Source of the DNA: an uncultured virus (IMG/VR IMGVR_UViG_3300025066_000004)
Lineage: Duplodnaviria; Heunggongvirae; Uroviricota; Caudoviricetes
Strand: one strand, 5' to 3'
DNA length: 20,000 bases
Virus record (IMG/VR): IMGVR_UViG_3300025066_000004
Numbering within the stretch: position 1 is the stretch's first letter; each line of letters starts with the position of its first letter. Under the pieces are notes generated by a model. It was not told the DNA's origin and ran no database searches. It saw only the letters and a program-made list of their open reading frames with translations. Both the position numbers and the translations under genes were made by a program. Of this stretch, positions 2,384-20,000 are shown piece after piece.

Positions 2384-3433
2384 TTATAGCCCAGCTTGCT
2401 CAGTACAACCAACTTCGAGACGAACCATACGCTCTTGGTAGGTGATTACCCCAGCAAACGGATTCTTGTAACCAACAGTTGCTCTCTGGTTCAATGGATC
2501 AAGTCCACCAGAAGAACCTAACTCTTTTCTAATCAGCTTCATGCCTTGATCCCCAGTTAGAGGAATAGTGGCAAAAGCATCCTGAGAGAAAATCAGAATC
2601 GGATAAACGTCTGCGTTAGCAGTATCCGAAGAAAGCAGATTCTCAGTATCAGGATTTGCGGCCCCAGCATTTCTAAAAGGCTCATAGTTTGTGGTGCAGA
2701 TAAAACGAAAGTTATCTACTTTACCAAACTCATGAGGATCAATAACAGAAGAGCCAGAAGCATAGGAGCTTGTTGGTGAGAAACCAGGTAGAGAGCGGAT
2801 ATCATACTCCAAATCAGGAGTGATAATCGCAATATACGAAGCCTCAACATCAACAGTTCCAAAACTTCCATCAGATCTCATGATCTGAGTAATCGGAAGT
2901 CCTGCCCGTCCATCCAGACCGTTCTTCAGAGTCCTAGAAGCCATGTGCAGATCTCCGATAGAAATCGCGGTTCTCACAGCCACACGAGAAGCAACATTGT
3001 TAGCGTAAACTACGTTTGTTCCTCCGGTAAGAATGTTGAACATCGACATATCCCGCTCTTCAGACTGAAGAGTAGAGAGGAACTGGTTCTCACCAGTTTT
3101 CAGGTTATCCGCATCTTCAAAGATAGTCTCTAAAAGATCAGTGTGCTCTAGGAAGTTACCGTACCAGACCAATTGGGCAGATACTTCTCTTCGAGTGAGC
3201 TTTTTCGAGTCAGGAGTTACACCTTCCAGCAAAGGAACAGGGGTAACAACTCGTGCAGGGGGATTCCATGCTTTTACATGAACAGTCTTGCCCTCCCCTT
3301 TGGGCATTTCAATTTGCATTGCGAACTTCTGCCATAACAGAACTTTGAGGTTGTAATCTAACCATTTGGCAGAGTAAAACGCGTCACGTACCTCACGTCG
3401 CGTATTCTCGGTAGTGTTACCTGAGATAGCCAT
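2384..3433 (-). CDS. Major capsid protein, N4-gp56 family
   Basis: Motifs MPKGEGKT, PLLEGVTP, YGNFLEHTD, HEFGKVDNFRFI, DVYPILIF and DPLNQRATVGYK; AAGGAG RBS; follows the scaffold gene. Confidence 0.92.
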   Translation of the reverse strand: MAISGNTTENTRREVRDAFYSAKWLDYNLKVLLWQKFAMQIEMPKGEGKTVHVKAWNPPARVVTPVPLLEGVTPDSKKLTRREVSAQLVWYGNFLEHTDLLETIFEDADNLKTGENQFLSTLQSEERDMSMFNILTGGTNVVYANNVASRVAVRTAISIGDLHMASRTLKNGLDGRAGLPITQIMRSDGSFGTVDVEASYIAIITPDLEYDIRSLPGFSPTSSYASGSSVIDPHEFGKVDNFRFICTTNYEPFRNAGAANPDTENLLSSDTANADVYPILIFSQDAFATIPLTGDQGMKLIRKELGSSGGLDPLNQRATVGYKNPFAGVITYQERMVRLEVGCTEQAGL

Positions 3434-8800: not shown

Positions 8801-9922
8801 ATGGGTGTCTAGGTTCCCCTGGACCGTACCCGCAGAACCCGCAGCATCGTAAGTGCTATCAATGTCGAAAGCTACTACAGAGTTTCCGTCCCCCGCGATT
8901 TTAAGACCGTAGTCAGCGTTATCTCCGAGAACAACCCCTACATCAGATAACCCTTCGAAAGTAGCTCCAACAAATGTAGTTGCGGTAAGGGCTCCTCTGA
9001 CCTCTAAGGCATAAGTGTTATCTGGGGCCTCCCCCTGATTTCCCCGGAACAAAGCATTCCCGTCCTCATCCATGATAAGGGTAGGTACTCCTGAAACAGG
9101 ATTTTGGAGAATAGATGAGCTGGCATGAAATGGAGTAACCATGCCTTGACCCAAAAAGAAGACCTGCCGGATAGCAGGAAGAGTTTCTTCAAAAAACTCA
9201 AAGGAAGGAGACGTAGCGGTATGCATAAAACCGCCGAGGTATAGCCCCCCCGTTTTTGAAGTACCCTTTAAAACTGAGAATAACTTCCCAAGCTTTCTAG
9301 TCCAAACTATATCGGTTAAAGGAGTATCTGCCTTTGCCGTAGCATCCGCCCAATCCGCAGAGTTAGCAGTTAAAAGGAGTAATTGGCCCCCTGTAACATT
9401 TGTCAAAACTGCAGTCAAAGTATCGACACCAGCTTGGGTGGTTAAGTCGTGAGAAGTCCCGAACCCACCTGCCGTAGGAAGAGCAGTAAACGCTCCAACA
9501 GCACTGACCGTAATATCAAACTGCATTGTAGCGACAATTCCTGCACCCAGAGCATTGCTATACTGGCTGTTACCGAGAATTACATTAACTCCAGTAGCGT
9601 CTGTCTCAACCTTCGCAGTATGAAAAAACGAAGTCCCCGCTAAATTGCCGAAAGGGTTGTCAGACCGTAAGGACTGAGCCGCCACGTTTCCAGTATCTAA
9701 AACCTTTAAAGCTTCGACACCCCCAAGAGTTTTTAGGGTTATGCCGTCAACAGTTTTAGCGAAGATATTACGCACGGAGACATCATTTGGAAAAGAGAGC
9801 GAATCTGCACTATCAAAGATAATACTCCCGGTGGCGGTAAGAGTTCCCGGAATTACTAGAGTACGGAAAGTCTGCTCTACATTCCAGTAGTTATGCTTAT
9901 CAAGCAGAGTGCCTCTGCCCAT
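5825..9922 (-). CDS. Large mosaic fibre protein (1365 aa) with C-terminal Kelch-like beta-propeller
   Basis: AAGGAG RBS; G/T/A/S-rich; fibre motifs VASVNGDTGPAVTL and FVSLSDTPANF; NLYYTE..R/NPHG repeats; Kelch-like blades (FNGKIWVTGG..DEVWSSVDGTTW, NKMYVIGG..DDVWVSEDGITW). Confidence 0.8.
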   Translation of the reverse strand: MGRGTLLDKHNYWNVEQTFRTLVIPGTLTATGSIIFDSADSLSFPNDVSVRNIFAKTVDGITLKTLGGVEALKVLDTGNVAAQSLRSDNPFGNLAGTSFFHTAKVETDATGVNVILGNSQYSNALGAGIVATMQFDITVSAVGAFTALPTAGGFGTSHDLTTQAGVDTLTAVLTNVTGGQLLLLTANSADWADATAKADTPLTDIVWTRKLGKLFSVLKGTSKTGGLYLGGFMHTATSPSFEFFEETLPAIRQVFFLGQGMVTPFHASSSILQNPVSGVPTLIMDEDGNALFRGNQGEAPDNTYALEVRGALTATTFVGATFEGLSDVGVVLGDNADYGLKIAGDGNSVVAFDIDSTYDAAGSAGTVQGNLDTHTGDVTLHRTINDAGAASTDLWSANKINTQKMDAVDRGATNGVAPLVSDKIPSSYLPSLALTDVFTPADLAARLALSTAELGDLAIQTDTGLSYILADPDYSVDGSWVPVNSPNDGVASVNGDTGPAVTLTTADINEVTNLYYTEGRVDGNSNVAANSAHTALTASNPHGTTTAQISEVTNLYFTNARADGRVAAHSDVTTAKAHADISDGSNPHGTTTANISEDTNLYYTEARVNANANVSANTTHRGTTGNPHSATTSDITEGTNEYHTTARAQGVIDGNIAAGKLVAGNAGKILQINGAGSLYDITSFKMPTGNGTADQVLTTAGDGTTSWEDASGGGGSDFVSLSDTPANFTSGKFKKVRVNAGATALEFATDHVITAVTDITGEVGDPIEYAVTDLHHTIIAGKAAATTNVNFTVANLEEGQVIIVKNVSITGTVNLVPSTGTIDGEASIPIAVYETKILQVAGGILQVIDPLGPTRISQYAKLAASNTWGANQIYADNVYQYFGTSSDMFLCHNGSHSYVKNTTGILYLTSTNNEVVLSGNNVIGYRFGSTDGSRINHKDASEHFRTTDAGVKVTGDLEVTTSATVGLALTVTGKVNANAGVALGNTADTTAGNIRYDGSDFTGRVGGEWKSFTTDSSTPITDGINFTALNPTGYVARVYSTVIATTYASINPPEVWIAGGQDTNQVFQVFSSTDGVTFSEKTLTFSGDGDPSSISAGGYQLVNAGDYVCLFYSSGGETKFRYTLDGETWVYNTSTNPPGLVSVRVVYFLGVLWVIGMDGSTLEIWKGSIGQNFVQQSLSNPFSSSTGTAVTSFNGKIWVTGGWVSGYSDEVWSSVDGTTWVQESGSGTGNASFTPRINHTLTIYSNKMYVIGGNNASTTFDDVWVSEDGITWREAYSYDQEIVSRTGHGAAVFNGEIHIYAGLDSASNYLSDGWKSVLDPNVLPSVRAASYLAVGDFAGTPQKGMIKFDGTNFKGYTGTSWVTLG
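7975..8415 (-). repeat. About 3.5 tandem 40-46-aa repeats within the fibre gene
   Basis: TTADINEVTNLYYTEGRV..AH..SNPHG / TTAQISEVTNLYFTNAR..AH..SNPHG / TTANISEDTNLYYTEARV..TH..GNPHS / TTSDITEGTNEYHTTAR; boundaries approximate. Confidence 0.85.
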
Positions 9923-10332: not shown

Positions 10333-10645
10333 GATCTTCTCCTTGCAGTTTTTCTGCCTCTCGCTCTGCCTCGATATCTCTTCGAATTTTCTCGACTTCT
10401 TGAGCCAGGGCTCCATTTTTTGTATCTTGCCAGCTTAACAGCTCGTCATAAAGACGGGTTGCTAAAACACAATATAAAGTATTTTGGCTATCACCAGCAA
10501 ACGCAGACTCCTGCGCTGCTACGAGTTGGTCATCTTTTCGATCCTGTAAGTACCGGAATAATGACCGGTAATTCCCGCTACTTAGATTCCTTGCTAGATC
10601 CAGAAGAAGATCGAGCTTTTGACTTGGACTCAGAAGATTTGTCAT
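10325..10645 (-). CDS. Hypothetical helical protein following the portal
   Basis: 106-aa ORF filling the gap between the portal and the next gene and overlapping both; start uncertain. Confidence 0.6.
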   Translation of the reverse strand: MTNLLSPSQKLDLLLDLARNLSSGNYRSLFRYLQDRKDDQLVAAQESAFAGDSQNTLYCVLATRLYDELLSWQDTKNGALAQEVEKIRRDIEAEREAEKLQGEDHE

Positions 10646-12890
10646 TTTTTGCCTTTTCTTTAGTCATCTTGAGCTCTGCTCGAAGGATGTCGAGTTCTTG
10701 CTCATGGACGGCTCTTTGATTTTTCATCTCTTGATTGAGATTTTTATTTTCAACTTGCTCAAGATTTAACCGAGCCTCCACAGGCACTTTAGCCTGAAGC
10801 TCTGCATTTTTTAATTTCGTAGAATCAAGTTCTTTCTCAGTTTGTTCGAGCTCTTTCAGAGTGCTCTCCCCTTGCTGCTGCATTTGCTCCATTTGCTGAC
10901 CCATCTCTTGCAACTGCTGGTTCATTATGTCTAACTGAGAGGAAAGCTCAGGGGTGTTTAAGATCTTGTCTTTATCAAACCCGATCCCCTCCATAGACAT
11001 TGTAAGGATATTTTTCCAGTTAAAGGAGTTTCGGATATCTGGGTTGAATTCTAAAAGAGCTGGAGTCATCTGAAGAAGCTCTGTAACCATTTGCTTATTC
11101 AGGAGCTGAAGAGCGAAAGTCTCGGCACCATAAACCGTGATATTCGCATCCACTAAGCCCTCATCCTCGGTAGCCGGATCATTCTGAAGGTAATGGTAGG
11201 TGCAGGATAAATCCCTCGAGATGATCTCTTGGTCAAAAGACCTTCGAATATCGAGCAAGATAACCTGAGCACTATTCAAATTCTGGGTAACTTCAGTTGC
11301 AGTTTGATGAGCCTGTTGAGTAACTCCAACTAAATTAGACGGGATCAAAGTAAGTTCATCTAACAACAACTCGAGTTTATCGAATAGTGCCATCAACTCT
11401 GCGCTAACTGATTCGAATTTAAGTTGGCTTAAAGCCCCACCCTGAGGACCCGCCCCTCGAACAAGAGTGCTACCAGGCTTAAACCGAACTTTCCCACCCG
11501 GGCGAAAGATCAGAGTTTGCTCGTCTACTACCGCAGGGTCGTAGGTAAACATCGCAGACCCTACGATAGTCGCGTTATCCTTTGATCGACTCCACAAATT
11601 TGACATAGCTCGGGCCGCTTCTCGCCCAAGAGCCATCACCCCAAACCCGTAATTTGTGTCCTCAACAGGAATCATCCTGTTGTAAGCAAGAGGACGTTTC
11701 CTGTCTGCCATGTAATTCGGGGAAGCGTAGATTAACTTGTCATTTAGGAAAATCAGGTTCACCTCAAAAGAGGAGAAGTCTCGATCATAGTCTTTTTGAG
11801 AATGTTCCTTAACCAACATCGCTTGGAGTTCTCGCAGAATTTCAGTGGTCCCAGACTTCGCCCATTCATCTAAATTATCTGAGGTAATAGACCCCCAGAA
11901 TTTTTTAAGAATAAAAGGCTGAGTATCTGTAGAAATAGAGGATTCTTGGAGACTGGAGGCCCCTTCATCCGAAGCCGGGGGCCCAGAGGGAGAATTTAAG
12001 GTTAGCGAAGACTCAGCCCCAAGGATAGAACGGATTTGTTCAAAGTCCCAGTTCCCTTTGCGGCCTAAAAACTCCGCCACTTGAGTTGAGTTAACCCGCT
12101 CTTTAACAAAACTCCCAAGACCATTCTGAGGATTACCTGAAGCATGAGGGTCTAAGAAAACATTATATGGACTGACTCTCGCCTGTCCAACGATAAATGA
12201 GTCCTTGAACGAAGGCTTAGATACAAGATCTAAAGACTCCTGACCCCCATCCTCGACTGATATAACATTTGTTTCGTAGTTTCGAACCCGTTTATTTTCT
12301 CGGATTCCCAACTCCATTGCACAGACCCCGTATTTAGCCAGGTCTTCAATACACTGGTGATATGTTTCCTCTGCACGGGATTCTTGCTTATGGTCGAGTA
12401 CTTGTTTTTCAGCCTTCTCAAGCCTTCGCTCAACCTTATCAACTAATTGCCGTACCATCTCCTCTGGAGGGGATTCCCCATTTACAAGGAGTTTACCTTT
12501 TCTATGCTGCTCTTCGACATCAGACTCTTCAGTAAGGGCTAAAGATCCAGTAACCCGACCATCCTTTGTTAAGTTCTGATAAAGATGGGCCACCATCGCA
12601 ACACACTTTGCACGAAGTTTCATCCCCCCAATATGAGTATCGTCTTTCCACCGATTAGGATCGTGGGAAGGACTGACGCCATAGACACTGCCAACCCATT
12701 TCCGGTAGTTAGACTTAGACGAGTCAACTCCTCCAAGAGGAAGAGCTAAAAAATCAACATCATCATGCTGAAATACCTCGTGCATCCAACTATTCCCAGA
12801 AACAAATTGATCATAGAGGGAAAGGTAGTGATCCTCTAATGGACTCTTCTCAGAAAAAACATAAGACTTATTCGGTTTGTCTTCAGGCAT
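10578..12890 (-). CDS. Portal protein (P22/N4-like, with C-terminal coiled-coil barrel)
   Basis: 770 aa directly after terL; motifs KYGVCAM, RVSPYNVFLDP, NYGFGV, IFRPGGK and QTATE; Q/E-rich coiled-coil tail. Confidence 0.88.
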   Translation of the reverse strand: MPEDKPNKSYVFSEKSPLEDHYLSLYDQFVSGNSWMHEVFQHDDVDFLALPLGGVDSSKSNYRKWVGSVYGVSPSHDPNRWKDDTHIGGMKLRAKCVAMVAHLYQNLTKDGRVTGSLALTEESDVEEQHRKGKLLVNGESPPEEMVRQLVDKVERRLEKAEKQVLDHKQESRAEETYHQCIEDLAKYGVCAMELGIRENKRVRNYETNVISVEDGGQESLDLVSKPSFKDSFIVGQARVSPYNVFLDPHASGNPQNGLGSFVKERVNSTQVAEFLGRKGNWDFEQIRSILGAESSLTLNSPSGPPASDEGASSLQESSISTDTQPFILKKFWGSITSDNLDEWAKSGTTEILRELQAMLVKEHSQKDYDRDFSSFEVNLIFLNDKLIYASPNYMADRKRPLAYNRMIPVEDTNYGFGVMALGREAARAMSNLWSRSKDNATIVGSAMFTYDPAVVDEQTLIFRPGGKVRFKPGSTLVRGAGPQGGALSQLKFESVSAELMALFDKLELLLDELTLIPSNLVGVTQQAHQTATEVTQNLNSAQVILLDIRRSFDQEIISRDLSCTYHYLQNDPATEDEGLVDANITVYGAETFALQLLNKQMVTELLQMTPALLEFNPDIRNSFNWKNILTMSMEGIGFDKDKILNTPELSSQLDIMNQQLQEMGQQMEQMQQQGESTLKELEQTEKELDSTKLKNAELQAKVPVEARLNLEQVENKNLNQEMKNQRAVHEQELDILRAELKMTKEKAKNDKSSESKSKARSSSGSSKESK

Positions 12891-12895
12891 ATTTT

Positions 12896-15145
12896 TTAGT
12901 CATCGTAACCATCTGAGGGCCTTAGATGGGATGGAGTTACTCCCTCAAACGACGTTGAGTCAAAGATACTGTCATATCGGAGTTGGTCAAGCTGCTCTTG
13001 CGAAATTTTTTGTTTTGTAGTCTTCTCAATCACAAACTCTCCACGCATCATAGGAGAGACTCCCGTTAGTAAACAGTCTACCAGGGAGAGCTCTTGACTT
13101 CGTGCAAAAACTCCGGCTCCAGTTAAATCTCGCTTTACAAAGGGTAGCACCCTCCAGAGATTTTTACAATTTGACGTAATTATAAGAGGCTTTGCCGCAT
13201 CACGAAGCTGTTGCTTTAAAAAGGGCACAGACAAACGATGATCGGGAGGAACAGGGATTACCACATCTCCCGTTTTAGTCATTTCTGTTAAATTTGACTG
13301 AGAAATTGAGTTAAATTCTTCTGACTCTTGTAAATAGTATACATAATCTGAGGAGATATTGAAGTTAGTTTCTAATTCTCTTATAAAACTTTGCACTTCC
13401 GCAACAGAATAAGAGGCACCTTTAAAGGAAGGATGGAGACTTGGGTCAACCCCATAGAGCTCTGCGAAAACAATAGGGGTGTTATGGAAAAAGTTATACC
13501 CAGCGATGGAACTTTCCGAATGTGCTCGAGTCAGCCAGAGCACTGAGAAGGGGTCCCCATTCGCAGGGATATTCACAGCCCGAACAATAGGCCAGTTACA
13601 GGGAGGACGGAAAGAAGGAAAAAAGTTCTTGTTTCCGATATCCTCCCCGAACATTGCATCAGCCATTAAATTCAGTAAAAATCTCAAGAGCTGGGAAAGG
13701 GAATCTACTTGATCGTCATGTTTAGCATTAGGGAATTTTTTCAATTCGTCAATAAAATCTGTAAGCCAGGGAGCGTTTCTAGGAAGCTTAACTCGCCCCG
13801 CCTCAATAAGAGAAGTGACGGACATGGCTCTTGCAAGCTTACTATCCCCCCGAACATGAAACGGTTCAACTGGAAGAATAGTCTGTTTCAAGTCTTCTAC
13901 CAGATCAATTCCAGAGGATTTATATTCAATTACAACCTTGTGAGGACGATGCTCCTTGTACTCATCCAAAATCAACTGTTTTAGATCCGGATAAGTAAAC
14001 TTCCCCCGGGTGAGATCTGTCAGGTAAACATTCAGACCATCAAATACAGCAGTGATCCCCACCGAAGGGTCGGAAGACTCGTTACGAGTCGAACCAGTAT
14101 CCCAAGACTGAACAGAGAATACAACATTAGAAGGAAGATCAGAATCTCCGTAATACGTCCACCACTGCTCTTTGAAGATTTCTCCTTCTTCAATAGAGGG
14201 GCGCTGTTGGTACAAGGCAACAAAGTCTGGTTCATCTACAGCTCTTATCGACAGATATCGGTCTAGGGGAAACTTACGAGGGTAGAGCGGCGCACCTTTT
14301 TTGCGTGAAAAGAACTCTGAGCCAAGTCTTTCTTGGTAGTCAGGGTTGAAAATTTGAAACTTCTCATCCTTCTCAGCGATAGCAGGGAGAGACAAGACCT
14401 CCCAATTCTCGTTAAACCGATCAGAATCTGAATCTGGGGCGAGTGCAGTCTCCATCTCCTTAGCAAGAAGCCTCCCTGCCAAGTCATCTTCGTGCCATCT
14501 TGTCATAATCAAAACTACCGCCGACCTTCTTTCCTCTAAACGGGTGTAAGCTACAGCGGTATACCAGTCCCAAATTCTATCGCGGATAGTCTTACTGTTG
14601 GCCTCAGCCCTGTCTTTCACAGGATCATCAATGATGAAAACGTGGGCCCCTTTTCCTGTCGCAGATCCCCCAACGGAAGTCCCAAAATACTTAGAACGAC
14701 GGGTCCTATTGTTCACCTGGTGATAGACCTCCCAGTCTGTTCTGGCAGATGCATCTTGAGAAAGGGAGGCTTGAGGGAAAACCTCCTTAAATTCGGCACT
14801 TTGGACGTAATTCCGGGCGTCTTTTCCGAAAGATGCTGCCAATTCCGCAGAATACGTGGACGCGATAACCTCTTTTTGGGCATTTCTGCCCAAAAACCAA
14901 GACGGAAACAGCCTAGAACTGAGCTCAGTCTTCCCATGCCGGGGAGGCATGAAGATCATGAGCCGGGGGATATCCCCTCTTTCTGCAGCCTCTAGTCGGT
15001 CTGCAATAAGGTAATGGAAGGGCTCAGGATGGTAAGAATCTAGCATTAAAAGAGCATAATCTATGAGATTACCTCTAGCTTTTACCACTCTAAGCTTCCT
15101 TAAAGTCTCAAGTTTCTGGGCAATTTCTAAGGAATCATCTGGCAT
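12896..15145 (-). CDS. terL: Terminase large subunit with about 255-aa C-terminal extension
   Basis: Walker A MPPRHGKT, Walker B FIIDDPVKD, MTRWHEDDLAGRLL, and nuclease motifs QSWDTG / IEYKSSG / HDDQVDSLSQ. Confidence 0.95.
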   Translation of the reverse strand: MPDDSLEIAQKLETLRKLRVVKARGNLIDYALLMLDSYHPEPFHYLIADRLEAAERGDIPRLMIFMPPRHGKTELSSRLFPSWFLGRNAQKEVIASTYSAELAASFGKDARNYVQSAEFKEVFPQASLSQDASARTDWEVYHQVNNRTRRSKYFGTSVGGSATGKGAHVFIIDDPVKDRAEANSKTIRDRIWDWYTAVAYTRLEERRSAVVLIMTRWHEDDLAGRLLAKEMETALAPDSDSDRFNENWEVLSLPAIAEKDEKFQIFNPDYQERLGSEFFSRKKGAPLYPRKFPLDRYLSIRAVDEPDFVALYQQRPSIEEGEIFKEQWWTYYGDSDLPSNVVFSVQSWDTGSTRNESSDPSVGITAVFDGLNVYLTDLTRGKFTYPDLKQLILDEYKEHRPHKVVIEYKSSGIDLVEDLKQTILPVEPFHVRGDSKLARAMSVTSLIEAGRVKLPRNAPWLTDFIDELKKFPNAKHDDQVDSLSQLLRFLLNLMADAMFGEDIGNKNFFPSFRPPCNWPIVRAVNIPANGDPFSVLWLTRAHSESSIAGYNFFHNTPIVFAELYGVDPSLHPSFKGASYSVAEVQSFIRELETNFNISSDYVYYLQESEEFNSISQSNLTEMTKTGDVVIPVPPDHRLSVPFLKQQLRDAAKPLIITSNCKNLWRVLPFVKRDLTGAGVFARSQELSLVDCLLTGVSPMMRGEFVIEKTTKQKISQEQLDQLRYDSIFDSTSFEGVTPSHLRPSDGYDD

Positions 15146-15178
15146 TATTCTCTAATTTTAAAGGTTTTTTAGAATTTG

Positions 15179-15385
15179 TTAATAGATTTTGAAGAATCTG
15201 AGATCCTCTATCCCAGAGCACGATTCTTCTACATCGAAGGTATATTCTCCAGATAATAGGTCATGAGAGAACGAGTCAAAATGGTCCCGATTACGGAAAT
15301 TCAGGTACTCATATACGAATTTCGGGGGCCCTTGAGCCTCGTATACCTTGGTAAAGGTCATGAGATAACACCTAGGATCATGCAA
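15179..15385 (-). CDS. Hypothetical protein (68 aa), first gene of the terL operon
   Basis: GAGGAGG about 6 nt upstream of a TTG start. Confidence 0.55.
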   Translation of the reverse strand: MHDPRCYLMTFTKVYEAQGPPKFVYEYLNFRNRDHFDSFSHDLLSGEYTFDVEESCSGIEDLRFFKIY

Positions 15386-15522
15386 AATACGCCTCCTCAG
15401 AACCCTATTCTACACTATCCGGTACTAGAACCTCCATTCTGGGCAATAAGCTCTCAGAGTCCTTCCTACGGCAAATGGGTGGGTGTTATACCCCGTGGCA
15501 GGTATGTGGGATGCTGGAAATT

Positions 15523-15630
15523 CAAGGTATCCGTAGATAGTCAGTAGAACTGGCCTTTCGGGACGAAGCCTCCTCCGGAGGTGCCCAGAGGGCATCCCGA
15601 AGGGCCCAGTCTACTTGCTAGATACCCTTG
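15523..15630. repeat. Imperfect long inverted repeat with two internal hairpins (T/Y-shaped)
   Basis: AGTAGAACTGGCCTTTCGGGA (15543-63) pairs with TCCCGAAGGGCCCAGTCTACT (15595-615); outer CAAGGTATC/GATACCCTTG; inner CCTCC-TCC-GGAGG and TGCCC-AGA-GGGCA. Confidence 0.8.
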
Positions 15631-15745
15631 GGTAGTGGGTAGGTTCATACTATATAAGAGCCCTCCAAACTCCCTACCCCTGTAACCCGCTCCCAGAGCG
15701 GTTCTCCAAGATCCGGTAGTTTTTGGTAGTTCCACCCTCCCTACC

Positions 15746-15775
15746 TTGACCACATACCCTCAAAAATGCTATCAT
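15746..15775 (+). promoter_or_regulatory. Sigma70-type promoter for the helicase operon
   Basis: TTGACC, 18-bp spacer, TATCAT with extended -10 TGn; the predicted start near 15782 coincides with the start of a long stem. Confidence 0.7.
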
Positions 15776-15782
15776 ATTCATA

Positions 15783-15908
15783 TGACCGAAAACTCACTGC
15801 CACTAAAAATGTAACCCGGTTCTGAGAGGCTTCCTCTCCAGCGAGCAGATTTAGTGTTTTCGGTCAATCTCACTTTACGTTCTTGTGAGGTTTCTCAGAA
15901 CCTGGGTT
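15783..15908 (+). ncRNA. Structured leader resembling P4 CI / P1 C4 antisense RNA plus downstream target
   Basis: Stems TGACCGAAAA/TTTTCGGTCA and CACTAAA/TTTAGTG with an 8-nt bulge; bulge and loop are complementary to 15885-15908. Confidence 0.55.
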
Positions 15909-15929
15909 TTTAACAAAGGATTGACCTCC

Positions 15930-17246
15930 ATGGAAATTGACCAAAATCTCGCCCAAAACATCGACTCCGCAGTCGAAGAATTAGACCGAATTTTCACCCA
16001 TTTTTACCTTCCCGACTTACCCTTAGAAGAGTTCAGGACCCGGCTTGAGCCATGCCTTGATGAACTGCACACTTTTGCCAAATCTGCAGGGCTAACCCTA
16101 GATGAAGAAATCAAGCTATACTATACCTCTCAGCCAGACTCCGACATTAAAGAAGGTGTAGTGCTCCCCACATTCAATTTCGCAGAATTCTTAACCTACG
16201 AACCCGCTCCTGAGAAATTCCTCATAGAAGGAATCCTCCCAGAAAACACTCCAGCCGTCTTGTACGGAACAGGGGGTGTCGGAAAATCGTACTTAACCAT
16301 CCAGCAAGCCGTTGCCTTGGCAACCGGACTCCCTTACTTAGACCGCTTCGAGGTCAAAGAAAAAAGGCAAGTCTTAATCATTGCCCAAGAAGACTCCAAA
16401 AACCAAATCCATTTACGAATCAAAAGAATCCTCGAGCATCTGTGTGAAATCCACGATCTCAATCCAAAAGACTTGGCTGAAGATCTTAAGAACATCGTTG
16501 CCGTGGACTTCTCTCAACTCAGAAAAGACCATCGCAAGATGAAAAGGAATCTCACTGACCCTTCAGAGGAGTTTTTCAACTCAATCAAGCAAACGGTTAA
16601 CAGTTTAGGAAACGTGGGTCTCATAATCGCAGACCCTCTAAACAAACTTTATGGTTCTGACATGAACGCCAATGACTTAGCAACAGACTTCATGCTCCGC
16701 ATTGAAGATCTCTGTGAAACTCTAAACGTCACTGTTGAAATCATCCATCACAAAAACAAAACTTCAGATTCTGTAAAATTCCGTTCTTACGGAGCAGGAG
16801 GCTCAATGGGAGCCGCTTCTTTCATTAACGGCGCTCGTCATGCAATCGAGGTAGACAAAGCCAACAAGCAAAACGACAAAATTCCTTCTGAAGATAGGGG
16901 TAACACCTTCCTTCACAACATTTCCAAATCCAATTACATGGCAGATGGAGATGAAAGAATTTTTTACATGAGAAAAAACACTAATGGAGTCCTCTATTAC
17001 TTTGATATCGAAAAACTCCGCATTGAAAGGGAGAAAAACCAAGAACGCCTCCAACTTGAGCGTCAAGAAGACCTGGCTCTCAAATGTAGAACTGCTCTAG
17101 ACCGAGGTCCTTTGAGAAAAATGGCTTTTTACGAAGCAATTGGTTATGAGAAATCAACCGGGGCTAAAAAACTCAAAGAAGCCTTAGCTTCTAACATCGT
17201 CGCTCTCGACGATAAAGGTCAGGTGGCTTTAAGTGCGCAAAACTGA
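15930..17246 (+). CDS. AAA_25 / RSF1010 RepA-like (SF4-type) helicase
   Basis: Walker A GTGGVGKS, QEDS, Walker B IIADPL, IIHHKNK and GAASFINGAR. ATG 15930 has an AAAGGA RBS; an in-frame GTG at 15885 is an alternative start. Confidence 0.85.
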   Translation: MEIDQNLAQNIDSAVEELDRIFTHFYLPDLPLEEFRTRLEPCLDELHTFAKSAGLTLDEEIKLYYTSQPDSDIKEGVVLPTFNFAEFLTYEPAPEKFLIEGILPENTPAVLYGTGGVGKSYLTIQQAVALATGLPYLDRFEVKEKRQVLIIAQEDSKNQIHLRIKRILEHLCEIHDLNPKDLAEDLKNIVAVDFSQLRKDHRKMKRNLTDPSEEFFNSIKQTVNSLGNVGLIIADPLNKLYGSDMNANDLATDFMLRIEDLCETLNVTVEIIHHKNKTSDSVKFRSYGAGGSMGAASFINGARHAIEVDKANKQNDKIPSEDRGNTFLHNISKSNYMADGDERIFYMRKNTNGVLYYFDIEKLRIEREKNQERLQLERQEDLALKCRTALDRGPLRKMAFYEAIGYEKSTGAKKLKEALASNIVALDDKGQVALSAQN

Positions 17247-17403
17247 TGGCAAGGATTTTACTGACCGGGAAATTATCTCCAAACTTTGTACTCGAGTTCT
17301 CGAACTCCAGGACCGCTTAAACAAGCTCGAAGGAAACTGTCGCTCAGACCAAATATCTAAAGCAATCGCTAATGATCCTCGACATAGCTATAAACTAAAA
17401 TAA
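17233..17403 (+). CDS. Small hypothetical protein (56 aa)
   Basis: Read by eye: GTG start with AGGTGG upstream, MRKTDGKDFTDREIISKLCTRVLELQDRLNKLEGNCRSDQISKAIANDPRHSYKLK; fills the gap between helicase and terminator. Confidence 0.5.
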   Translation: MRKTDGKDFTDREIISKLCTRVLELQDRLNKLEGNCRSDQISKAIANDPRHSYKLK

Positions 17404-17421
17404 TTTATAATTTTTTTCTTT

Positions 17422-17454
17422 TCCCCTCTTCTTCGGAAGGGGGGATTTTTTTTT
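17422..17454 (+). terminator. Intrinsic terminator of the helicase operon
   Basis: TCCCCTCTTC-TTCG-GAAGGGGGGA followed by T9. Confidence 0.9.
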
Positions 17455-17498
17455 ACCCAAAACCTAAATTTTCAAAAAATTAATTAGCGAGGTATGGG

Positions 17499-17522
17499 TT
17501 CACTCCGCTTCCGCTCCGTAAA
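17499..17522 (-). promoter_or_regulatory. GGA-zipper hairpin motif, copy 1
   Basis: Minus strand TTTAC-GGA-GC-GGAA-GC-GGA-GTGAA. Confidence 0.45.
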
Positions 17523-17571
17523 GAGAGGCCCCCTCATTTCGGGGGCCACCCCCCCTACCGGGGAGTTTGTT

Positions 17572-17596
17572 ACACACTCCGCTTCACTCCATGTGT
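17572..17596 (-). promoter_or_regulatory. GGA-zipper hairpin motif, copy 2 (candidate template-strand promoter)
   Basis: Minus strand ACACAT-GGA-GT-GAA-GC-GGA-GTGTGT, 63 nt before ATG 17660. Confidence 0.55.
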
Positions 17597-17659
17597 CTAT
17601 TGATTATGAAGTTTCTCTCACGGTGAGAGGAACAAGAGTGCTGATTGCTAGGAGGTCGC

Positions 17660-17848
17660 ATGAACTGCGAACTGTGTAGCAAAGCCGCTTACCAGGACAC
17701 AGGGCTATGCCCTGAATGTCTCTGGGATGAGGAGTCAAAGGCTATCTTCCTTCAGATGATGAAGGAGATAGCTGAGGACACAAGGGCAGAGACCCTTGTG
17801 GACCTTGACTCCTGCCCTGCGGAACAAGACGACGAGCATTGTCTATAA
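17660..17848 (+). CDS. Small Zn-finger-like protein (62 aa)
   Basis: GGAGG RBS; CELC and CPEC motifs; acidic tail. Confidence 0.7.
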   Translation: MNCELCSKAAYQDTGLCPECLWDEESKAIFLQMMKEIAEDTRAETLVDLDSCPAEQDDEHCL

Positions 17849-17894
17849 AAACTGCTCAAAAGGTGCCGTGTCCCACCTATGGTAAACGTGACAC
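17827..17894 (+). ncRNA. Tandem double H-type pseudoknot module, copy 1
   Basis: [AGACGA]C[GAGCA][TTGTCT]ATAAAAAC[TGCTC] then [AGGTG]CC[GTGTC]C[CACCT]ATGGTAAACGT[GACAC]. Confidence 0.65.
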
Positions 17895-17916
17895 TTTGAT
17901 TCAAAGGGGAAGCATC

Positions 17917-18213
17917 ATGCCGTGGTATGAATGCAAGAGCTTTGATAACTGCAAACAGTTAATAGACGAGGCATACGAGTACTTACTCTGTCCTCAATGT
18001 CTAGAGGCTGAAAGCAAGGAGAGCATCATTAACCCTAAGGATGCTATCCACATATTTTGCAGTTGGTGTGGACTGGAACTGTCTTCACTGGAGTGCCCAG
18101 CCTGTGACAAGGAAACAGGTATGGAAACTTACGCTTGTAGAGAGTGTGAGGAACAAACTCCAATAGAAGACGGGCCAGTCTGCGAAGACTGCCAGCAGGA
18201 CTGTTACATCTAG
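17917..18213 (+). CDS. Multi-CxxC zinc-ribbon protein (98 aa)
   Basis: Start moved to ATG 17917 (AAGGGG RBS); CPQC, CSWC, CPAC, CREC and CEDC motifs. Confidence 0.75.
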   Translation: MPWYECKSFDNCKQLIDEAYEYLLCPQCLEAESKESIINPKDAIHIFCSWCGLELSSLECPACDKETGMETYACRECEEQTPIEDGPVCEDCQQDCYI

Positions 18214-18340
18214 GAAAGGTGTGACAGATCTTCAATTCCTTTTCAAAGGGACGCTGCATAGACAGTAAGGCCATGACAGGCCAGTCCCCTCTGTGGATCG
18301 TGACAGATCCCATGTCCCGGGCCGAGGGTTAAGTCGGCAC

Positions 18341-18414
18341 AGACCTGAGCACGTCTTTAAACTGCTCAATCTTTATAAAAAGGAGACGTTACCCTCCGAA
18401 GGTAAAAGCGTAAC
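18341..18414 (+). ncRNA. Tandem double H-type pseudoknot module, copy 2
   Basis: [AGAC]C[TGAGCA]C[GTCT]TTAAAC[TGCTCA] then [GGAG]AC[GTTAC]C[CTCC]GAAGGTAAAAGC[GTAAC]. Confidence 0.65.
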
Positions 18415-18433
18415 ACTCAGAGAAAGGAAGACC

Positions 18434-18667
18434 ATGAACGATTACGTTCATCGTTGCTTCTGTGAGTTTTGTGGTAAAAGCGTGCACTACCCTCAAATAG
18501 GGGAAGAGTCCGTGGAGAAGGCCCATTACTTCTGTTATTGGAATCGCGTCGACTGGGACTACCAGAATGACGCGAGGACGGCAGATGATGATGCCATCTT
18601 CGACCACTGCACCGGGGAGAAAACCGTTACTTTAAACGGCAAGATCCCCGGTTCTTGCAGAAAATAG
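18434..18667 (+). CDS. Small Cys/His-containing protein (77 aa)
   Basis: Start moved to ATG 18434 (AAAGGA RBS); CEFC and HYFC motifs. Confidence 0.7.
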   Translation: MNDYVHRCFCEFCGKSVHYPQIGEESVEKAHYFCYWNRVDWDYQNDARTADDDAIFDHCTGEKTVTLNGKIPGSCRK

Positions 18668-18809
18668 TCGGGACAAAATTTTGATCCCGTTGTGCCTCAA
18701 CGAATGGCACGAGGTAAACTACTCGCCAAAAGCAGTAGCGTCACCTCAAATTCTCCTGACCGGAGCCATACTCGCCACAGTAAGAGTTAAGCTGTGATAA
18801 ATCTGTAAG

Positions 18810-18844
18810 GAGCCTGGACCCTTCGGGGTCTGGGCTCTTTTTTT
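18810..18844 (+). terminator. Intrinsic terminator
   Basis: GAGCCTGGACCC-TTCG-GGGTCTGGGCTC followed by T7. Confidence 0.92.
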
Positions 18845-18874
18845 ATGTGAGTTCCCACTCTGGGGAGTGGGAGG

Positions 18875-18893
18875 TAACCCACCCTCCTGGCCC
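18875..18893 (+). repeat. 19-bp direct repeat, copy 1
   Basis: TAACCCACCCTCCTGGCCC, identical to 19349-19367. Confidence 0.9.
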
Positions 18894-18950
18894 CTGCCAA
18901 GCTCCCTACCAAAGATCGACCCACTCGCTATTTTTATTCTTTTTCTTTAT

Positions 18951-18975
18951 ACACATTCCATTTCATTCCATGTGT
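18951..18975 (-). promoter_or_regulatory. GGA-zipper hairpin motif, copy 3 (candidate template-strand promoter)
   Basis: Minus strand ACACAT-GGA-AT-GAA-AT-GGA-ATGTGT, 43 nt before ATG 19019. Confidence 0.55.
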
Positions 18976-19018
18976 CTAATAATGTTGTGATTATTTACAA
19001 CTTTAAGGAGGTTGTATT

Positions 19019-19267
19019 ATGGCTATTGCCAATAAGAAAGAAATCATAGATTCCATCGTAGTTAATGAGACCCCAAAAGGGGTCTTCATGAATTTACGAC
19101 AATCGACCACAAACTCTACTCTTGAAGGAGTAGATTTTGTGACAAATTCGACAGGGTATCGCCTGTCGGATTCCCTTTCAGAAGAGGATTACCCTCTCCT
19201 GAAAGAGAAGATTGCGGAAGCAATCGTCCGTGAGCAGATTGCACTGCTCACAGCGTCATTGGCCTAA
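19019..19267 (+). CDS. Hypothetical protein (82 aa), monocistronic cassette
   Basis: TAAGGAGGT RBS; has its own upstream motif and downstream terminator. Confidence 0.85.
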   Translation: MAIANKKEIIDSIVVNETPKGVFMNLRQSTTNSTLEGVDFVTNSTGYRLSDSLSEEDYPLLKEKIAEAIVREQIALLTASLA

Positions 19268-19276
19268 TCGGCCACC

Positions 19277-19313
19277 AGGTCCTCAGCCCCTCAGGGGGCT
19301 GGGACCTTTTTTT
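19277..19313 (+). terminator. Intrinsic terminator
   Basis: AGGTCC(T)CAGCCCC-TCAG-GGGGCTGGGACCT followed by a T run. Confidence 0.88.
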
Positions 19314-19348
19314 ATGCAATTTACCACTGTTGGTTTTTTTAATACTTT

Positions 19349-19367
19349 TAACCCACCCTCCTGGCCC
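19349..19367 (+). repeat. 19-bp direct repeat, copy 2
   Basis: TAACCCACCCTCCTGGCCC. Confidence 0.9.
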
Positions 19368-19369
19368 GC

Positions 19370-19426
19370 ATCAATAGATCAAAGAATCAAAGAATCAAAG
19401 AATCAAAGAACCACCCAAGTCAAAGA
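19370..19426 (+). repeat. Tandem 8-mer array (ATCAAAGA)x4 with degenerate flanking copies
   Basis: Perfect copies at 19378-19409; ATCAATAG at 19370 and GTCAAAGA at 19419. Confidence 0.9.
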
Positions 19427-19428
19427 AA

Positions 19429-19995
19429 CTAAGGCTCAACCAACATTCCACTACGCTTCAATTCCTTTTCATACTTAGCTATCAACTCTTCATCACTCAT
19501 GCTATCGTTATCAGTGACCTTAACATGGATAGTAGAGTCAGCGTACAATTGCATTAGCTTAGACAGCTCTTTCAATGCATCCATTTTATTATGCATCTTA
19601 ACTCTCACAGATTTGTGTCCACCAGCCGCTCTAGTCATGCTCACTTCGCTAATTGCATCTGCTATCGAAGCATCTATTTCTTCAGACGCTTTCAATGAAA
19701 CAGTGTCACCTTCCCACTTAGTTACATCTTTAATATTTGCCGTTGCAATACGCACTAGTTGAGAAATTACAGTTTCAGGAGTTAGCGATGTCATCACCAT
19801 TACTTCCTTCATCCTAGTCATAATTGCACGAGCAACAGGTTCCTTAGTTAACATCTGATTAACGTAAGTTTTGAACGAACTTTCATTCTCATTTTGATAC
19901 CCAGCAAGTCTAGCCGCTTCTTCAGCTCGTCCCTCAGTTGCTATAAAAAACTCAACAAATAACGACTGCCTAAACGTTAATCCATTTGGTAACAA
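19429..19995 (-). CDS. terS: Terminase small subunit (Terminase_2-like); true start may lie beyond the window
   Basis: LTFRQSLFVEFF..AEEAARLAGY helix-turn-helix, VISQLVRIATANIKD and VRVKMHNKMDALKELSK; the frame is open to the window edge. Confidence 0.9.
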   Translation of the reverse strand: MLPNGLTFRQSLFVEFFIATEGRAEEAARLAGYQNENESSFKTYVNQMLTKEPVARAIMTRMKEVMVMTSLTPETVISQLVRIATANIKDVTKWEGDTVSLKASEEIDASIADAISEVSMTRAAGGHKSVRVKMHNKMDALKELSKLMQLYADSTIHVKVTDNDSMSDEELIAKYEKELKRSGMLVEP

Positions 19996-20000
19996 CGCCC

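What the first reader, a model, noticed from the sequence alone, without database searches (positions are those of the whole stretch)
17499..18978. Template-strand GGA-zipper/GAA-loop hairpins upstream of the small-gene units: candidate N4-like ssDNA promoters
Seen: TACACAYTCCRYTTCAYTCCATGTGTCTA occurs at 17571-99 and 18950-78 (25/29 identical), with a variant at 17499-522. On the minus strand all three read stem-GGA-2bp-G(G)AA-2bp-GGA-stem. Each of the three stem irregularities is a G.T wobble on the minus strand but a C/A mismatch on the plus strand, so only the template strand folds. Known: d(GNA) triloops and paired GGA/GGA motifs (as in TGGAA repeats) are stable non-canonical DNA structures, and N4 virion RNAP recognises template-strand hairpins with purine triloops. 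The capsid here is N4-gp56-like. Inference: early promoters read as non-canonical ssDNA by a phage RNAP or activator. I found no convincing -35 box for these units.
Basis: partly seen in the sequence, partly recalled or inferred. Interest (0 to 1): 0.8.

Follow-up and report, generated by a model that had tools for sequence, protein, structure and literature searches.

The report
Purine-strand zipper hairpins before phage genes
A marine-type phage carries four copies of a small DNA hairpin whose purine-rich strand should fold unusually tightly. They sit mostly at the head of small-gene units, and the same hairpin tip recurs in many other viral and cellular genomes, but what it does is still open.

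Summary
Two 29-mers (17571-99, 18950-78; 25 of 29 identical) and the variant at 17499-522 share one architecture. It is a variable 5-6 bp stem, TCC, 2 covarying bp, TTC(C), 2 bp, TCC, stem. A fourth copy with a third stem sequence lies about 0.7 kb past the window end, in contigs L004 and L011.

Pairing covaries. On the minus strand 39 of 40 cells pair, against 35 of 40 on the plus strand. Every irregular cell is G.T on minus and C/A on plus. The minus strand reads GGA-NN-GAA-NN-GGA, which combines two published extra-stable DNA motifs: the guanine zipper and the GCGAAGC-type mini-hairpin.

The capsid is N4-gp56 family (215 bits).

The promoter reading is untested. No RNA polymerase gene appears in about 36 kb of an estimated 66 kb genome. 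The hairpin is not of N4 form, which I checked directly on N4 P1-P3.

The same cap is widespread. A GC-clamped 17-mer gives at least 119 IMG/VR loci against 9 for its mirror control. It also occurs in phages with no detectable phage polymerase and in many bacteria.

Best reading, at about 0.3 confidence: a supercoil-extruded template-strand hairpin at the core promoter position of accessory units. Minus-strand RNA, priming signal and plus-strand RNA remain live rivals.

The parts
17571..17599 (-). Hairpin copy 1. The paired part is 17572-17596. On the minus strand it reads: 6-bp stem (one G.T), GGA, GT, GAA, GC, GGA, stem. It lies 64 nt before the start of gene A.
18950..18978 (-). Hairpin copy 2. 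The paired part is 18951-18975 and all pairs are Watson-Crick. The minus strand contains TGGAA-TGAAA-TGGAA, a three-unit satellite-III-like pentamer repeat. It lies 43 nt before the start of gene D.
17498..17523 (-). Hairpin copy 3, the weaker variant. It has a 5-position stem (one G.T on minus), GGA, GC, a GGAA tetraloop, GC, GGA. It lies 74 nt upstream of copy 1.
17422..17455 (+). Intrinsic terminator T1 closing the helicase unit. Copies 3 and 1 follow it.
18807..18846 (+). Intrinsic terminator T2 (15-bp stem, T run) closing the A-B-C unit. Copy 2 follows 105 nt later.
19282..19314 (+). Intrinsic terminator T3 closing gene D.
17660..17848 (+). Gene A: 62 aa, Cys-rich (CxxC pairs), strong Shine-Dalgarno sequence. 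First gene of the unit headed by copies 3 and 1.
17917..18213 (+). Gene B: 98 aa, double zinc ribbon (PF12773, 27.0 bits, just under the 27.3 cut-off).
18434..18667 (+). Gene C: 77 aa, Cys-rich, no family.
19019..19267 (+). Gene D: 82 aa, no family. It is the single gene of the unit headed by copy 2.
17527..17547 (.). G+C-rich 7-bp hairpin between copies 3 and 1. The scan flagged it as terminator-like on the minus strand.
15746..15775 (+). The only good sigma-70-type promoter of the region (TTGACC, 18 nt, TG-extended TATCAT), before the helicase gene. It shows that host-type promoters are recognisable here when present.

Best explanation
The element is a strand-asymmetric mini-hairpin.

Shown:
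- Four copies share a constant 13-14 nt cap and variable, covarying stems.
- All four are oriented so that the purine-rich strand is the template strand of the neighbouring + strand genes.
- Three copies lie between an intrinsic terminator and the first gene of a small accessory unit, where no host-type promoter is detectable. The fourth lies between two + strand genes, upstream of a terminator-like hairpin.

Inferred from published DNA structures: on the purine strand the cap folds as sheared G.A / intercalated G-G ('guanine zipper'), then two Watson-Crick pairs, then a G-A-A or G-G-A-A turn. The pyrimidine strand has no comparable fold.

Inferred mechanism: negative supercoiling extrudes the hairpin. 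The compact template-strand hairpin persists and marks or opens the core promoter region (about -5 to -30 of the likely start) for an RNA polymerase or cofactor that reads DNA structure. This resembles coliphage N4 early promoters in principle. The enzyme has not been identified.

I put about 0.8 on 'real structured, strand-specific element', about 0.55 on 'the minus strand is the folded strand', and about 0.3 on the promoter mechanism as a whole.
For: Structure:
- 7 of 8 pairs change on both sides across 5 distinct sequences.
- 39 of 40 cells pair on minus against 35 of 40 on plus.
- 0 of 500 shuffles reach the observed covariation.
- L011 copy 1 carries GT..AC where the window has GC..AC. 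That one change restores a pair, while the 12-nt flanks each carry 2-3 changes.

Strand:
- All 3 independent irregularities are G.T on minus.
- Loops read GAA (3 copies) or GGAA (1 copy) on minus.
- In copies 1, 2 and 4 a T/C mismatch below the stem is G.A on minus.
- The copy 2 minus strand is TGGAA-TGAAA-TGGAA. The purine strand of such repeats forms hairpins held by guanine zippers, whereas the pyrimidine strand shows no melting (PMC11014236, passages).
- The copy 4 centre is GCGAAGC, the mini-hairpin with Tm 76.5 C, which is also the heptamer of N4 promoter P1 (PMC13037366, passages; read directly in N4).

Position:
- T1 is followed by copies 3 and 1, then gene A. T2 is followed by copy 2, then gene D.
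- No sigma-70-like site is predicted in 17456-17659 or 18847-19018, although one scoring 10 of 12 is found before the helicase gene.
- Each 5' leader has its own small hairpin starting 9-18 nt after the element, so a start site just after the element is plausible (read).

N4 comparison: all three N4 hairpins lie on the template strand 21-58 nt before gp1, gp2 and gp15. Here the hairpin centres lie 56 and 76 nt before genes D and A.

The capsid is N4-gp56 family. The closest cultured capsid relative, StenR_269, is annotated with a putative virion RNA polymerase.
Against: - No RNA polymerase gene was found in any sequence available for this phage or its 60%-identity relative.
- The large unassigned virion protein (1504 aa) matches only a 'virion-associated phage protein' in the PDB.
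- The hairpin is not N4-like in form. It has a 2-bp inner helix plus a 3x3 internal loop, and no conserved flank like that of N4.
- Copy 4 follows a gene directly and precedes an 11-bp hairpin with a T run that abuts the next ribosome-binding site. That is an odd place for a promoter.
- Three cultured phages with N4-gp56 capsids, one with an annotated virion polymerase, have no such element.
- The same cap is single-copy in 5 of 5 other viral records tested, and only 1 of those 5 has a T7-like polymerase.
- In the wider 17-mer set, orientation relative to genes is mixed and if anything opposite. Of 27 intergenic cases, a gene on the GGA strand ends within 100 nt in 11, and a gene on the TCC strand ends upstream in 2.
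- The cap also occurs in many bacteria and archaea.
- Nearest-neighbour DNA folding gives no strand asymmetry.
- N4-type promoters are confined to the genome end injected first (PMC4496689). The position of this region in the packaged genome is unknown.
Confidence: 0.3

Rival explanations
1. Minus-strand RNA hairpin. Late transcription on the minus strand, which carries terS, terL and all structural genes, runs antisense through the small-gene block. The GGA-GAA-GGA hairpins then act in that RNA as stabilising, processing or pausing structures, or within antisense control of the early units.
For: - G.U-type wobbles are the usual signature of RNA structure, and all 3 irregularities fit the minus strand.
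- With RNA parameters the minus strand folds into exactly this architecture in 3 of 4 copies, at -5.0 to -9.7 kcal/mol.
- Copies 2, 1 and 3 lie downstream of the terS stop on the minus strand, and T3, T2 and T1 have no T run in that direction.
- In the wider 17-mer set, the gene that ends next to the cap is on the GGA strand in 11 of 27 intergenic cases against 2 for the TCC strand.
Against: - Copy 4 lies upstream of terS on the minus strand, inside a block of + strand genes that continues for at least 4 kb. A minus transcript there would be pure antisense.
- No minus-strand promoter or gene is evident in the 4.3 kb between terS and terL.
- GAA triloops are not notably stable in RNA, whereas they are in DNA (recalled, together with the passages).
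- Only 5 of 96 contexts have a T run after the GGA-strand hairpin.
Confidence: 0.2
2. Single-strand DNA signal for replication. These would be SSB-resistant hairpins on one strand next to the replicative helicase gene, serving as priming or helicase/primosome loading sites, like the G4 complementary-strand origin or RSF1010 ssiA.
For: - GCGAAGC-type mini-hairpins occur at the G4 primase site and in ssiA, which RepB' primase recognises, and such hairpins bind SSB poorly (PMC13037366, passages).
- All four copies lie within 3.5 kb downstream of the AAA_25 helicase gene.
- Iteron-like 8-bp tandem repeats lie at 19371-19444.
- The hairpin is single-copy in 5 of 5 other viral records, 3 of them at least 91% complete. 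That fits a one-per-genome function.
Against: - The copies are spread over 3.2 kb and interleaved with genes and terminators, rather than clustered in one origin.
- All are on one strand.
- The 60%-identity relative keeps the helicase but has no hairpin.
- No primase gene was seen.
- GC skew gives no origin signal in the window.
Confidence: 0.12
3. Plus-strand RNA element. The hairpin is transcribed as part of the mRNA leaders or intercistronic regions of the small genes. It acts there as a 5' stabiliser, a processing site or a protein-binding operator, with its UCC triplets presented in an internal loop.
For: - All four copies have the TCC strand as the sense strand of adjacent genes.
- The same holds in 4 other viral contexts that could be read: L138, L140, L141 and L271.
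- Copy 4 is almost certainly transcribed with gene F, since no terminator lies between them.
- The plus-strand RNA of copy 4 folds into the same shape at -7.1 kcal/mol.
Against: - Plus-strand RNA folds are weak for copies 1-3 (-1.7 to -3.0 kcal/mol). Copy 3 is no better than shuffles: 195 of 200 fold as well.
- All irregularities are C/A mismatches on this strand.
- Pyrimidine 3x3 loops and UUC loops are not known stable motifs.
- No Rfam family matches.
Confidence: 0.13
4. No dedicated function. The element would be a by-product of pentamer (GGAGC/GGAAT-type) slippage repeats, or a recombination scar at cassette junctions, kept because it is harmless. Alternatively it is a double-stranded binding site made of three CTYCG pentamers.
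For: - The cap plus one base on each side reads as three tandem pentamers (CTCCG-CTTCG-CTCCG in copy 4, TTCCA-TTTCA-TTCCA in copy 2).
- Flanks of many database hits carry further GCTYC-type units.
- The small-gene region is mosaic. L011 has an extra gene flanked by another repeat, and the 60% relative lacks the whole block.
- 103 of 121 17-mer hits have no stem beyond 3 pairs.
Against: - Slippage repeats do not explain 5-6 bp flanking stems of three unrelated sequences, or pair-restoring changes.
- The mirror-image controls argue against composition alone: 0 of 121 hits with at least 4 flanking pairs against 16 of 119, and 9 loci against at least 119.
- A sequence-read double-stranded site would not need covarying inner pairs.
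- The hairpin is more conserved than its flanks between the window and L011.
Confidence: 0.2

Closest known systems
Coliphage N4 early promoters P1-P3 (virion RNA polymerase hairpin promoters)
   Same: - Hairpin on the template strand, tens of nt before the first gene of a unit.
- A purine G-N-A turn closed by G-C pairs.
- Stems are variable as long as they pair.
- The copy 4 centre is the same heptamer as N4 P1 (PMC4496689 and PMC13037366 passages).
- The capsid belongs to the N4-gp56 family.
   Different: - N4 has a contiguous 5-7 bp stem and a conserved flank. Here only 2 bp close the turn, followed by a 3x3 GGA/GGA loop and then 5-6 bp.
- One copy has a 4-nt loop.
- Three of four central heptamers are not GCG(G/A)AGC.
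- No virion polymerase was found.
- The position relative to the genome end is unknown.
Guanine-zipper (GGA)2 hairpins of human satellite III, d(ATGGA)n / d(TGGAA)n
   Same: The copy 2 minus strand is literally three such pentamers with the middle GGA replaced by GAA. The published fold alternates two A-T pairs with sheared G.A / intercalated G-G, and only the purine strand folds (PMC11014236 passages).
   Different: That is eukaryotic satellite DNA with no known regulatory role. Here there is a single three-unit module embedded in a Watson-Crick stem. Copies 1, 3 and 4 use G-C or G-T pairs in place of A-T. Folding here is inferred and was not measured.
d(GCGAAGC) / d(GCGAAAGC) mini-hairpins at priming sites (phage G4 origin, RSF1010 ssiA)
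   Same: The central heptamer of copy 4 is identical, and copy 1 differs from it by one base. These hairpins are SSB-resistant compact ssDNA structures used as start signals (PMC13037366 passages). The element lies near a helicase gene.
   Different: Those sites sit in defined origins and are recognised by a primase. Here there are four dispersed copies on one strand and no primase gene in view.
Promoter/stem-loop cassettes flanking mobile small genes in T4-type phages (PeSL; recalled, not read here)
   Same: Small accessory genes are each framed by a repeated regulatory module and a terminator. Gene content is mosaic between close relatives.
   Different: PeSL modules are host-type early promoters plus an RNA stem-loop. 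Here no host-type promoter is detectable, and the repeated unit is the hairpin itself.

Membership tests
N4-type virion-RNAP hairpin promoter | Hairpin on the template strand upstream of the transcribed gene | tested here: met
   In 4 of 4 copies the purine hairpin is on the strand complementary to the adjacent + strand genes. N4 P1-P3 are read the same way.
N4-type virion-RNAP hairpin promoter | Contiguous 5-7 bp stem closing a 3-nt purine-centred loop (GC-rich heptamer GCG[G/A]AGC) | tested here: not met
   The inner helix is only 2 bp and is followed by a 3x3 internal loop. Copy 3 has a 4-nt loop. Only copy 4 has the heptamer. N4 has 5, 7 and 7 bp stems.
N4-type virion-RNAP hairpin promoter | Conserved sequence from -17 to +1 shared by all promoters of the phage | tested here: inconclusive
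   The cap (9 invariant columns) and a CT dinucleotide after the stem in 3 of 4 copies are shared. The stems are not. No start site is known, so positions cannot be numbered.
N4-type virion-RNAP hairpin promoter | Phage encodes a virion-packaged RNA polymerase | tested here: inconclusive
   None was found in the window, L011 or G007, about 36 kb in all. About 30 kb of an estimated 66 kb genome is unseen: CheckV completeness is 16% for a 10.8 kb fragment of the nearest record and 39% for the 25.6 kb relative.
N4-type virion-RNAP hairpin promoter | Location in the genome end injected first | not testable with these tools
   No whole genome or genome termini are available.
Guanine-zipper / mini-hairpin DNA structure | GGA opposite GGA flanked by Watson-Crick pairs, with a G-N-A turn closed by a pair, on the purine strand | tested here: met
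   Both GGA triplets and the GAA core are invariant in 5 of 5 sequences. The inner pairs are 100% paired on minus. The actual fold was not measured.
Intrinsic (rho-independent) terminator | G+C-rich hairpin followed by a T run on the transcribed strand | tested here: not met
   None of the four copies was called by the terminator scan, and no T run follows on either strand. In the wider set only 7 of 96 contexts have one.
Sigma-70-type promoter | -35 and -10 hexamers at 16-18 bp spacing | tested here: not met
   No site was called in 17456-17659 or 18847-19018. The scan does find one before the helicase gene.
Any curated RNA family (Rfam 15) | Match at or near the gathering score | tested here: not met
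   The best matches over L011 7500-17738 have E of 0.23 or worse, all lie far below gathering and none is on the hairpins.

The most novel reading that the evidence does not exclude
The 13-nt cap GGA-GC-GAA-GC-GGA, with covarying inner pairs, is a previously undescribed and widespread self-folding DNA module: a guanine zipper stacked on a GNA mini-hairpin. Phages, and possibly cells, would use it as a strand-specific single-strand DNA signal. In this phage it would be the core of structure-read promoters for accessory early genes. That would extend hairpin-promoter transcription beyond the N4 family, and it would be the first natural prokaryotic or viral use of the satellite-III-type zipper.
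Probability: 0.22. Interest if true: 0.85.

Novelty: new variant of a known kind. Interest (0 to 1): 0.6.

Why it matters
Only one well-studied system, coliphage N4, is known to read promoters as extruded DNA hairpins. If this element works at the DNA level, it would show that other phage lineages use structure-read signals built from a different non-canonical motif. It would also give a simple sequence signature (cap plus any stem) for finding them in metagenomes.

Independently of function, the over-representation is a concrete, testable lead to an unannotated class of structured elements. A GC-clamped form of the cap gives at least 119 IMG/VR loci against 9 for its mirror control. It is missed by nearest-neighbour folding programs and is absent from Rfam.

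Tried and rejected
1. Whole genome: none is held. So there are no further motif copies from the rest of this genome and no transcript ends.

2. blastn of 15000-20000 against cultured phages gave no match.

3. Exact and relaxed scans of the full motif in IMG/VR returned only this phage's own contig.

4. The covariance model R1 found nothing beyond the four known copies in 223 kb, including three cultured N4-gp56-capsid phages.

5. I suspected enrichment of cap hits near contig ends. It is not significant against the control: 14 of 76 against 8 of 52 for contigs of at least 15 kb, Fisher p = 0.81. Rejected.

6. Link to T7-like polymerases: PF00940 was found in 1 of 5 hairpin-bearing records. Rejected as a general link.

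7. A crAss-like identity for the 94-97 kb records carrying the 17-mer: PF25731 was found in 0 of 5, but the family also rang in no control genome, so this is uninformative.

8. Shared proteins next to hairpins in different phages: none with E below 0.01.

9. The 1482/1504-aa virion protein as a hidden polymerase: no PHROG, NCBIfam or PDB polymerase hit. BLASTP against the StenR_269 putative virion polymerase gave E = 0.24. The profile hit only 8jov_A, a 'virion-associated phage protein'.

10. By eye I tried sigma-70, extended -10, sigma-54 and Bacteroidetes-type readings of the motif and its flanks. None fits both copies. A candidate GATTAT -10 is not conserved in L011.

11. Anti-Shine-Dalgarno pairing of the UCC triplets with the downstream ribosome-binding sites: at most 4 bp, and not shared by the copies. 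Rejected.

12. Full-text search for the cap as a word: 107 papers hold a sub-word. The 20 listed are primer or unrelated contexts judged by title and abstract, and none concerns phage.

13. GC skew shows no switch in the window.
Full report
**What the window is.** It is a tailed-phage contig.
- The minus strand carries the structural and packaging genes: large terminase 12896-15145, portal 10578-12890, major capsid protein 2384-3433, and large tail proteins.
- The capsid protein is an N4-gp56 family member (TIGR04387, 215.1 bits against a cut-off of 60, E 1.5e-63).
- The plus strand carries an AAA_25 helicase (15885-17246) behind a good sigma-70-type promoter (15746-15775).
- Four small genes follow it (A 17660-17848, B 17917-18213, C 18434-18667, D 19019-19267), divided by strong intrinsic terminators T1, T2 and T3.
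- A small-terminase gene on the minus strand starts the next block (19429 onward).
- No whole genome is held.
- An identical IMG/VR contig (L004) extends 977 nt beyond the window.
- A metagenome contig with a 96%-identical helicase (L011) extends about 8 kb beyond it.
- A relative with a 60%-identical helicase (L005, and G007 through L006/L150) extends 8 kb beyond the other end.

**The observation.** It holds.
- The degenerate 29-mer matches only at 17571-99 and 18950-78, and 0 of 200 shuffles gave a match. The two copies differ at 4 of 29 positions.
- The stripped-down core TCC-NN-TTC-NN-TCC occurs twice against 0.28 expected. The TTCC-loop form occurs once against 0.10 expected.
- A regular-expression scan found that all core matches lie on the + strand and all have 5-6 complementary flanking positions.
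- Reading the L004 extension revealed a fourth copy at L004 9633-9657 (window-equivalent 20665-20689). It has a perfect 6-bp stem of unrelated sequence.
- L011 has the same four copies.
- The family has three different outer stems around a constant cap.
- On an alignment of the five distinct sequences, 7 of 8 pairs show changes on both sides. The structure beats all 500 shuffles and all slid registers.
- On the minus strand 39 of 40 cells pair; on the plus strand 35 of 40 do.
- The four differing cells come from three independent events. Each is G.T on minus and C/A on plus.
- Where the window's copy 1 has the G.T, L011 has a Watson-Crick pair. That is the only change inside the hairpin, while the 12-nt flanks on each side carry 2-3 changes.
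- Three of three events in one direction is suggestive, not decisive.

**Which strand and which molecule.**
- Nearest-neighbour DNA folding gives weak hairpins on both strands and nothing for copy 3. Such parameters ignore sheared G.A pairs.
- RNA parameters favour the minus strand and return the proposed architecture as the minimum for 3 of 4 copies.
- The sequence argument is stronger. On the minus strand the cap reads GGA, two pairs, GAA or GGAA, two pairs, GGA.
- The minus strand of copy 2 is TGGAA-TGAAA-TGGAA. In passages of PMC11014236, the purine strand of d(ATGGA)n folds into hairpins built from A-T pairs alternating with a G-G intercalation between sheared G.A pairs. A three-repeat variant with a changed middle triplet forms a hairpin. 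The pyrimidine strand shows no clear melting.
- The centre of copy 4 is GCGAAGC. In passages of PMC13037366, this 7-mer melts at 76.5 C. Such mini-hairpins occur at the G4 primase site, in RSF1010 ssiA and in the N4 early promoter.
- In copies 1, 2 and 4 the mismatch just below the stem is T/C on plus, which is G.A on minus.
- I therefore think the minus strand is the folded one (about 0.55). Both motifs are best known from DNA.
- Minus-strand RNA is not excluded for copies 1-3, because that strand carries the late genes. It is unlikely for copy 4, which lies inside a + strand gene block.

**Direct comparison with N4.** I fetched the first 7.5 kb of N4.
- It has exactly three GCG(G/A)AGC heptamers with flanking stems. 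All are on the template strand, with 5, 7 and 7 bp stems and loops GAA, GGA, GGA. They lie 21-58 nt before gp1, gp2 and gp15. This matches passages of the N4 review PMC4496689.
- The element here shares the strand, the purine turn, the tolerance of stem sequence and a similar distance to the gene.
- It differs in having only two pairs under the turn, then a 3x3 GGA/GGA loop, then the stem.
- It is therefore not a member of the N4 promoter family as defined, although it could work like one.

**The polymerase question.**
- I found no RNA polymerase in the window, in 8 kb of L011, or in the relative's 8 kb beyond the capsid module.
- The closest cultured capsid relative, StenR_269, is annotated with a putative 2270-aa virion polymerase. 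That protein finds nothing in the three held records of this lineage.
- The lineage's 1482/1504-aa unassigned virion protein is unrelated to it. Its profile hits only a 'virion-associated phage protein'.
- CheckV completeness values (16% for a 10.8 kb fragment of the nearest record and 39% for the 25.6 kb relative) put the genome near 66 kb. About 30 kb is therefore unseen.
- StenR_269, Rollin and vB_Pun_Y3 carry no such hairpin.

**Position in the window.**
- The layout is T1, copy 3, a G+C hairpin, copy 1, a leader hairpin, then gene A. Likewise T2, about 100 nt, copy 2, a leader hairpin, then gene D.
- No sigma-70-like site is called in either interval. T2 is strong, so gene D needs its own promoter within 18847-19018.
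- Copy 2 is the only block this interval shares with the interval before gene A, apart from short CCCTACC and AT-rich stretches.
- This is the main argument for a promoter role.
- Copy 4 breaks the pattern. It follows the stop of gene F with no terminator between. It precedes an 11-bp hairpin with a T run that abuts the ribosome-binding site of gene G.

**The cap elsewhere.**
Of 119 matches, 16 have at least 4 and 12 have at least 5 consecutive complementary flanking pairs, with many different stems. For the mirror-image control the figure is 0 of 121.
- A 17-mer with one more G-C pair on each side again hit the limit, with at least 119 loci and 96 distinct contexts. Its mirror control gave 9 loci in the whole collection.
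- Most 17-mer hits (103 of 121) have no stem beyond three pairs, so the GC-clamped 17-mer may be a self-contained unit.
- The covariance model finds the hairpin once per record in 5 of 5 other records, three of them at least 91% complete.
- Only 1 of 5 records has a T7-like polymerase.
- In eight contexts I could read (four here, plus L138, L140, L141 and L271), the TCC strand is the sense strand of neighbouring genes. In L141 the hairpin lies about 40 nt before an HNH endonuclease gene.
- In the larger 17-mer sample the orientation is mixed. Of 67 dereplicated contexts, 48 lie inside an ORF of at least 90 aa on one strand or the other, though many contigs are G+C-rich and this count is unreliable.
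- Of the 27 intergenic contexts, a gene on the GGA strand ends within 100 nt in 11, against 2 for the TCC strand.
- T runs follow the hairpin in only 7 of 96 contexts.
There 33 of 122 hits have at least 4 flanking pairs.
- I read the cap as a generic structural module used in several settings. This weakens the idea that it is a recognition sequence of one phage enzyme.

**Verdict.** The element is real, structured and strand-asymmetric. It is absent from Rfam, and I found no description of it by word search.
- My preferred mechanism in this phage is a supercoil-extruded template-strand hairpin at the core promoter of accessory units (0.3).
- The rivals are a neutral or double-stranded-site reading (0.2), a minus-strand RNA hairpin (0.2), a plus-strand RNA element (0.13) and a priming signal (0.12).
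What I add is the fourth copy, the covariation statistics, the direct N4 comparison, the failed polymerase search, and the wide distribution of the cap.

Noticed in passing
window 17868-17894 and 18388-18414; L011 10783-10815 and 11161-11195: This is a second structured repeat family just upstream of genes B and C. It has a 5-bp outer stem (GTGTC/GACAC or GTTAC/GTAAC, which covary), a 3-bp inner hairpin and a 6-7 nt A-rich 3' bulge. It is preceded at variable distance by AAACTGCTCAA (17849-17859, 18359-18369). In L011 two copies flank an extra 103-aa gene (10835-11146) that the window lacks, as if the repeat were a cassette junction.
   Followed up: partly
window 19371-19444: Four to five tandem 8-bp units (TCAAAGAA) lie directly after the 3' end of the small-terminase gene. 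They look iteron-like and could be a pac site or an origin element.
   Followed up: no
window 18819-18893 and 19288-19367: Terminators T2 and T3 are part of a duplicated module of about 80 nt. It ends in an exact 19-nt repeat (18875-18893 and 19349-19367).
   Followed up: no
window 15664-15678, 15731-15745, 17553-17559, 18896-18910; L004 about 9618-9626: The short motif (C)CCTACC recurs in intergenic DNA. One copy abuts the -35 hexamer of the helicase promoter. Others lie 11-39 nt before hairpin copies 1, 2 and 4. It could be a factor-binding site.
   Followed up: no
window 12896-20000; L005 2-5236: The small and large terminase genes, both on the minus strand, are separated by an opposite-strand block. 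In the window that block is the helicase plus small genes. In the 60% relative it is the helicase plus one small ORF. The split is therefore ancestral, and the small-gene cassettes are a later addition.
   Followed up: partly
window 12896-15145: The large terminase is 749 aa. The terminase domains end near residue 490, which leaves an unassigned C-terminal extension of about 250 aa.
   Followed up: no
window 5825-9922: This 1365-aa virion/tail protein has Kelch repeats at its C-terminus (residues about 1179-1321; PF01344, 41.5 bits).
   Followed up: no
L491, L496, L518 (genome-contig hits): Three bacterial records share the same longer bulged stem around the cap (GTGGTTGC-cap-GCAAACCAC). This suggests a conserved hairpin at one locus of a bacterial group.
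   Followed up: no
L139 (G002, provirus record) 1334-1619: Here the capped hairpin sits inside a 273-bp tandem duplication, giving two copies 273 nt apart.
   Followed up: no
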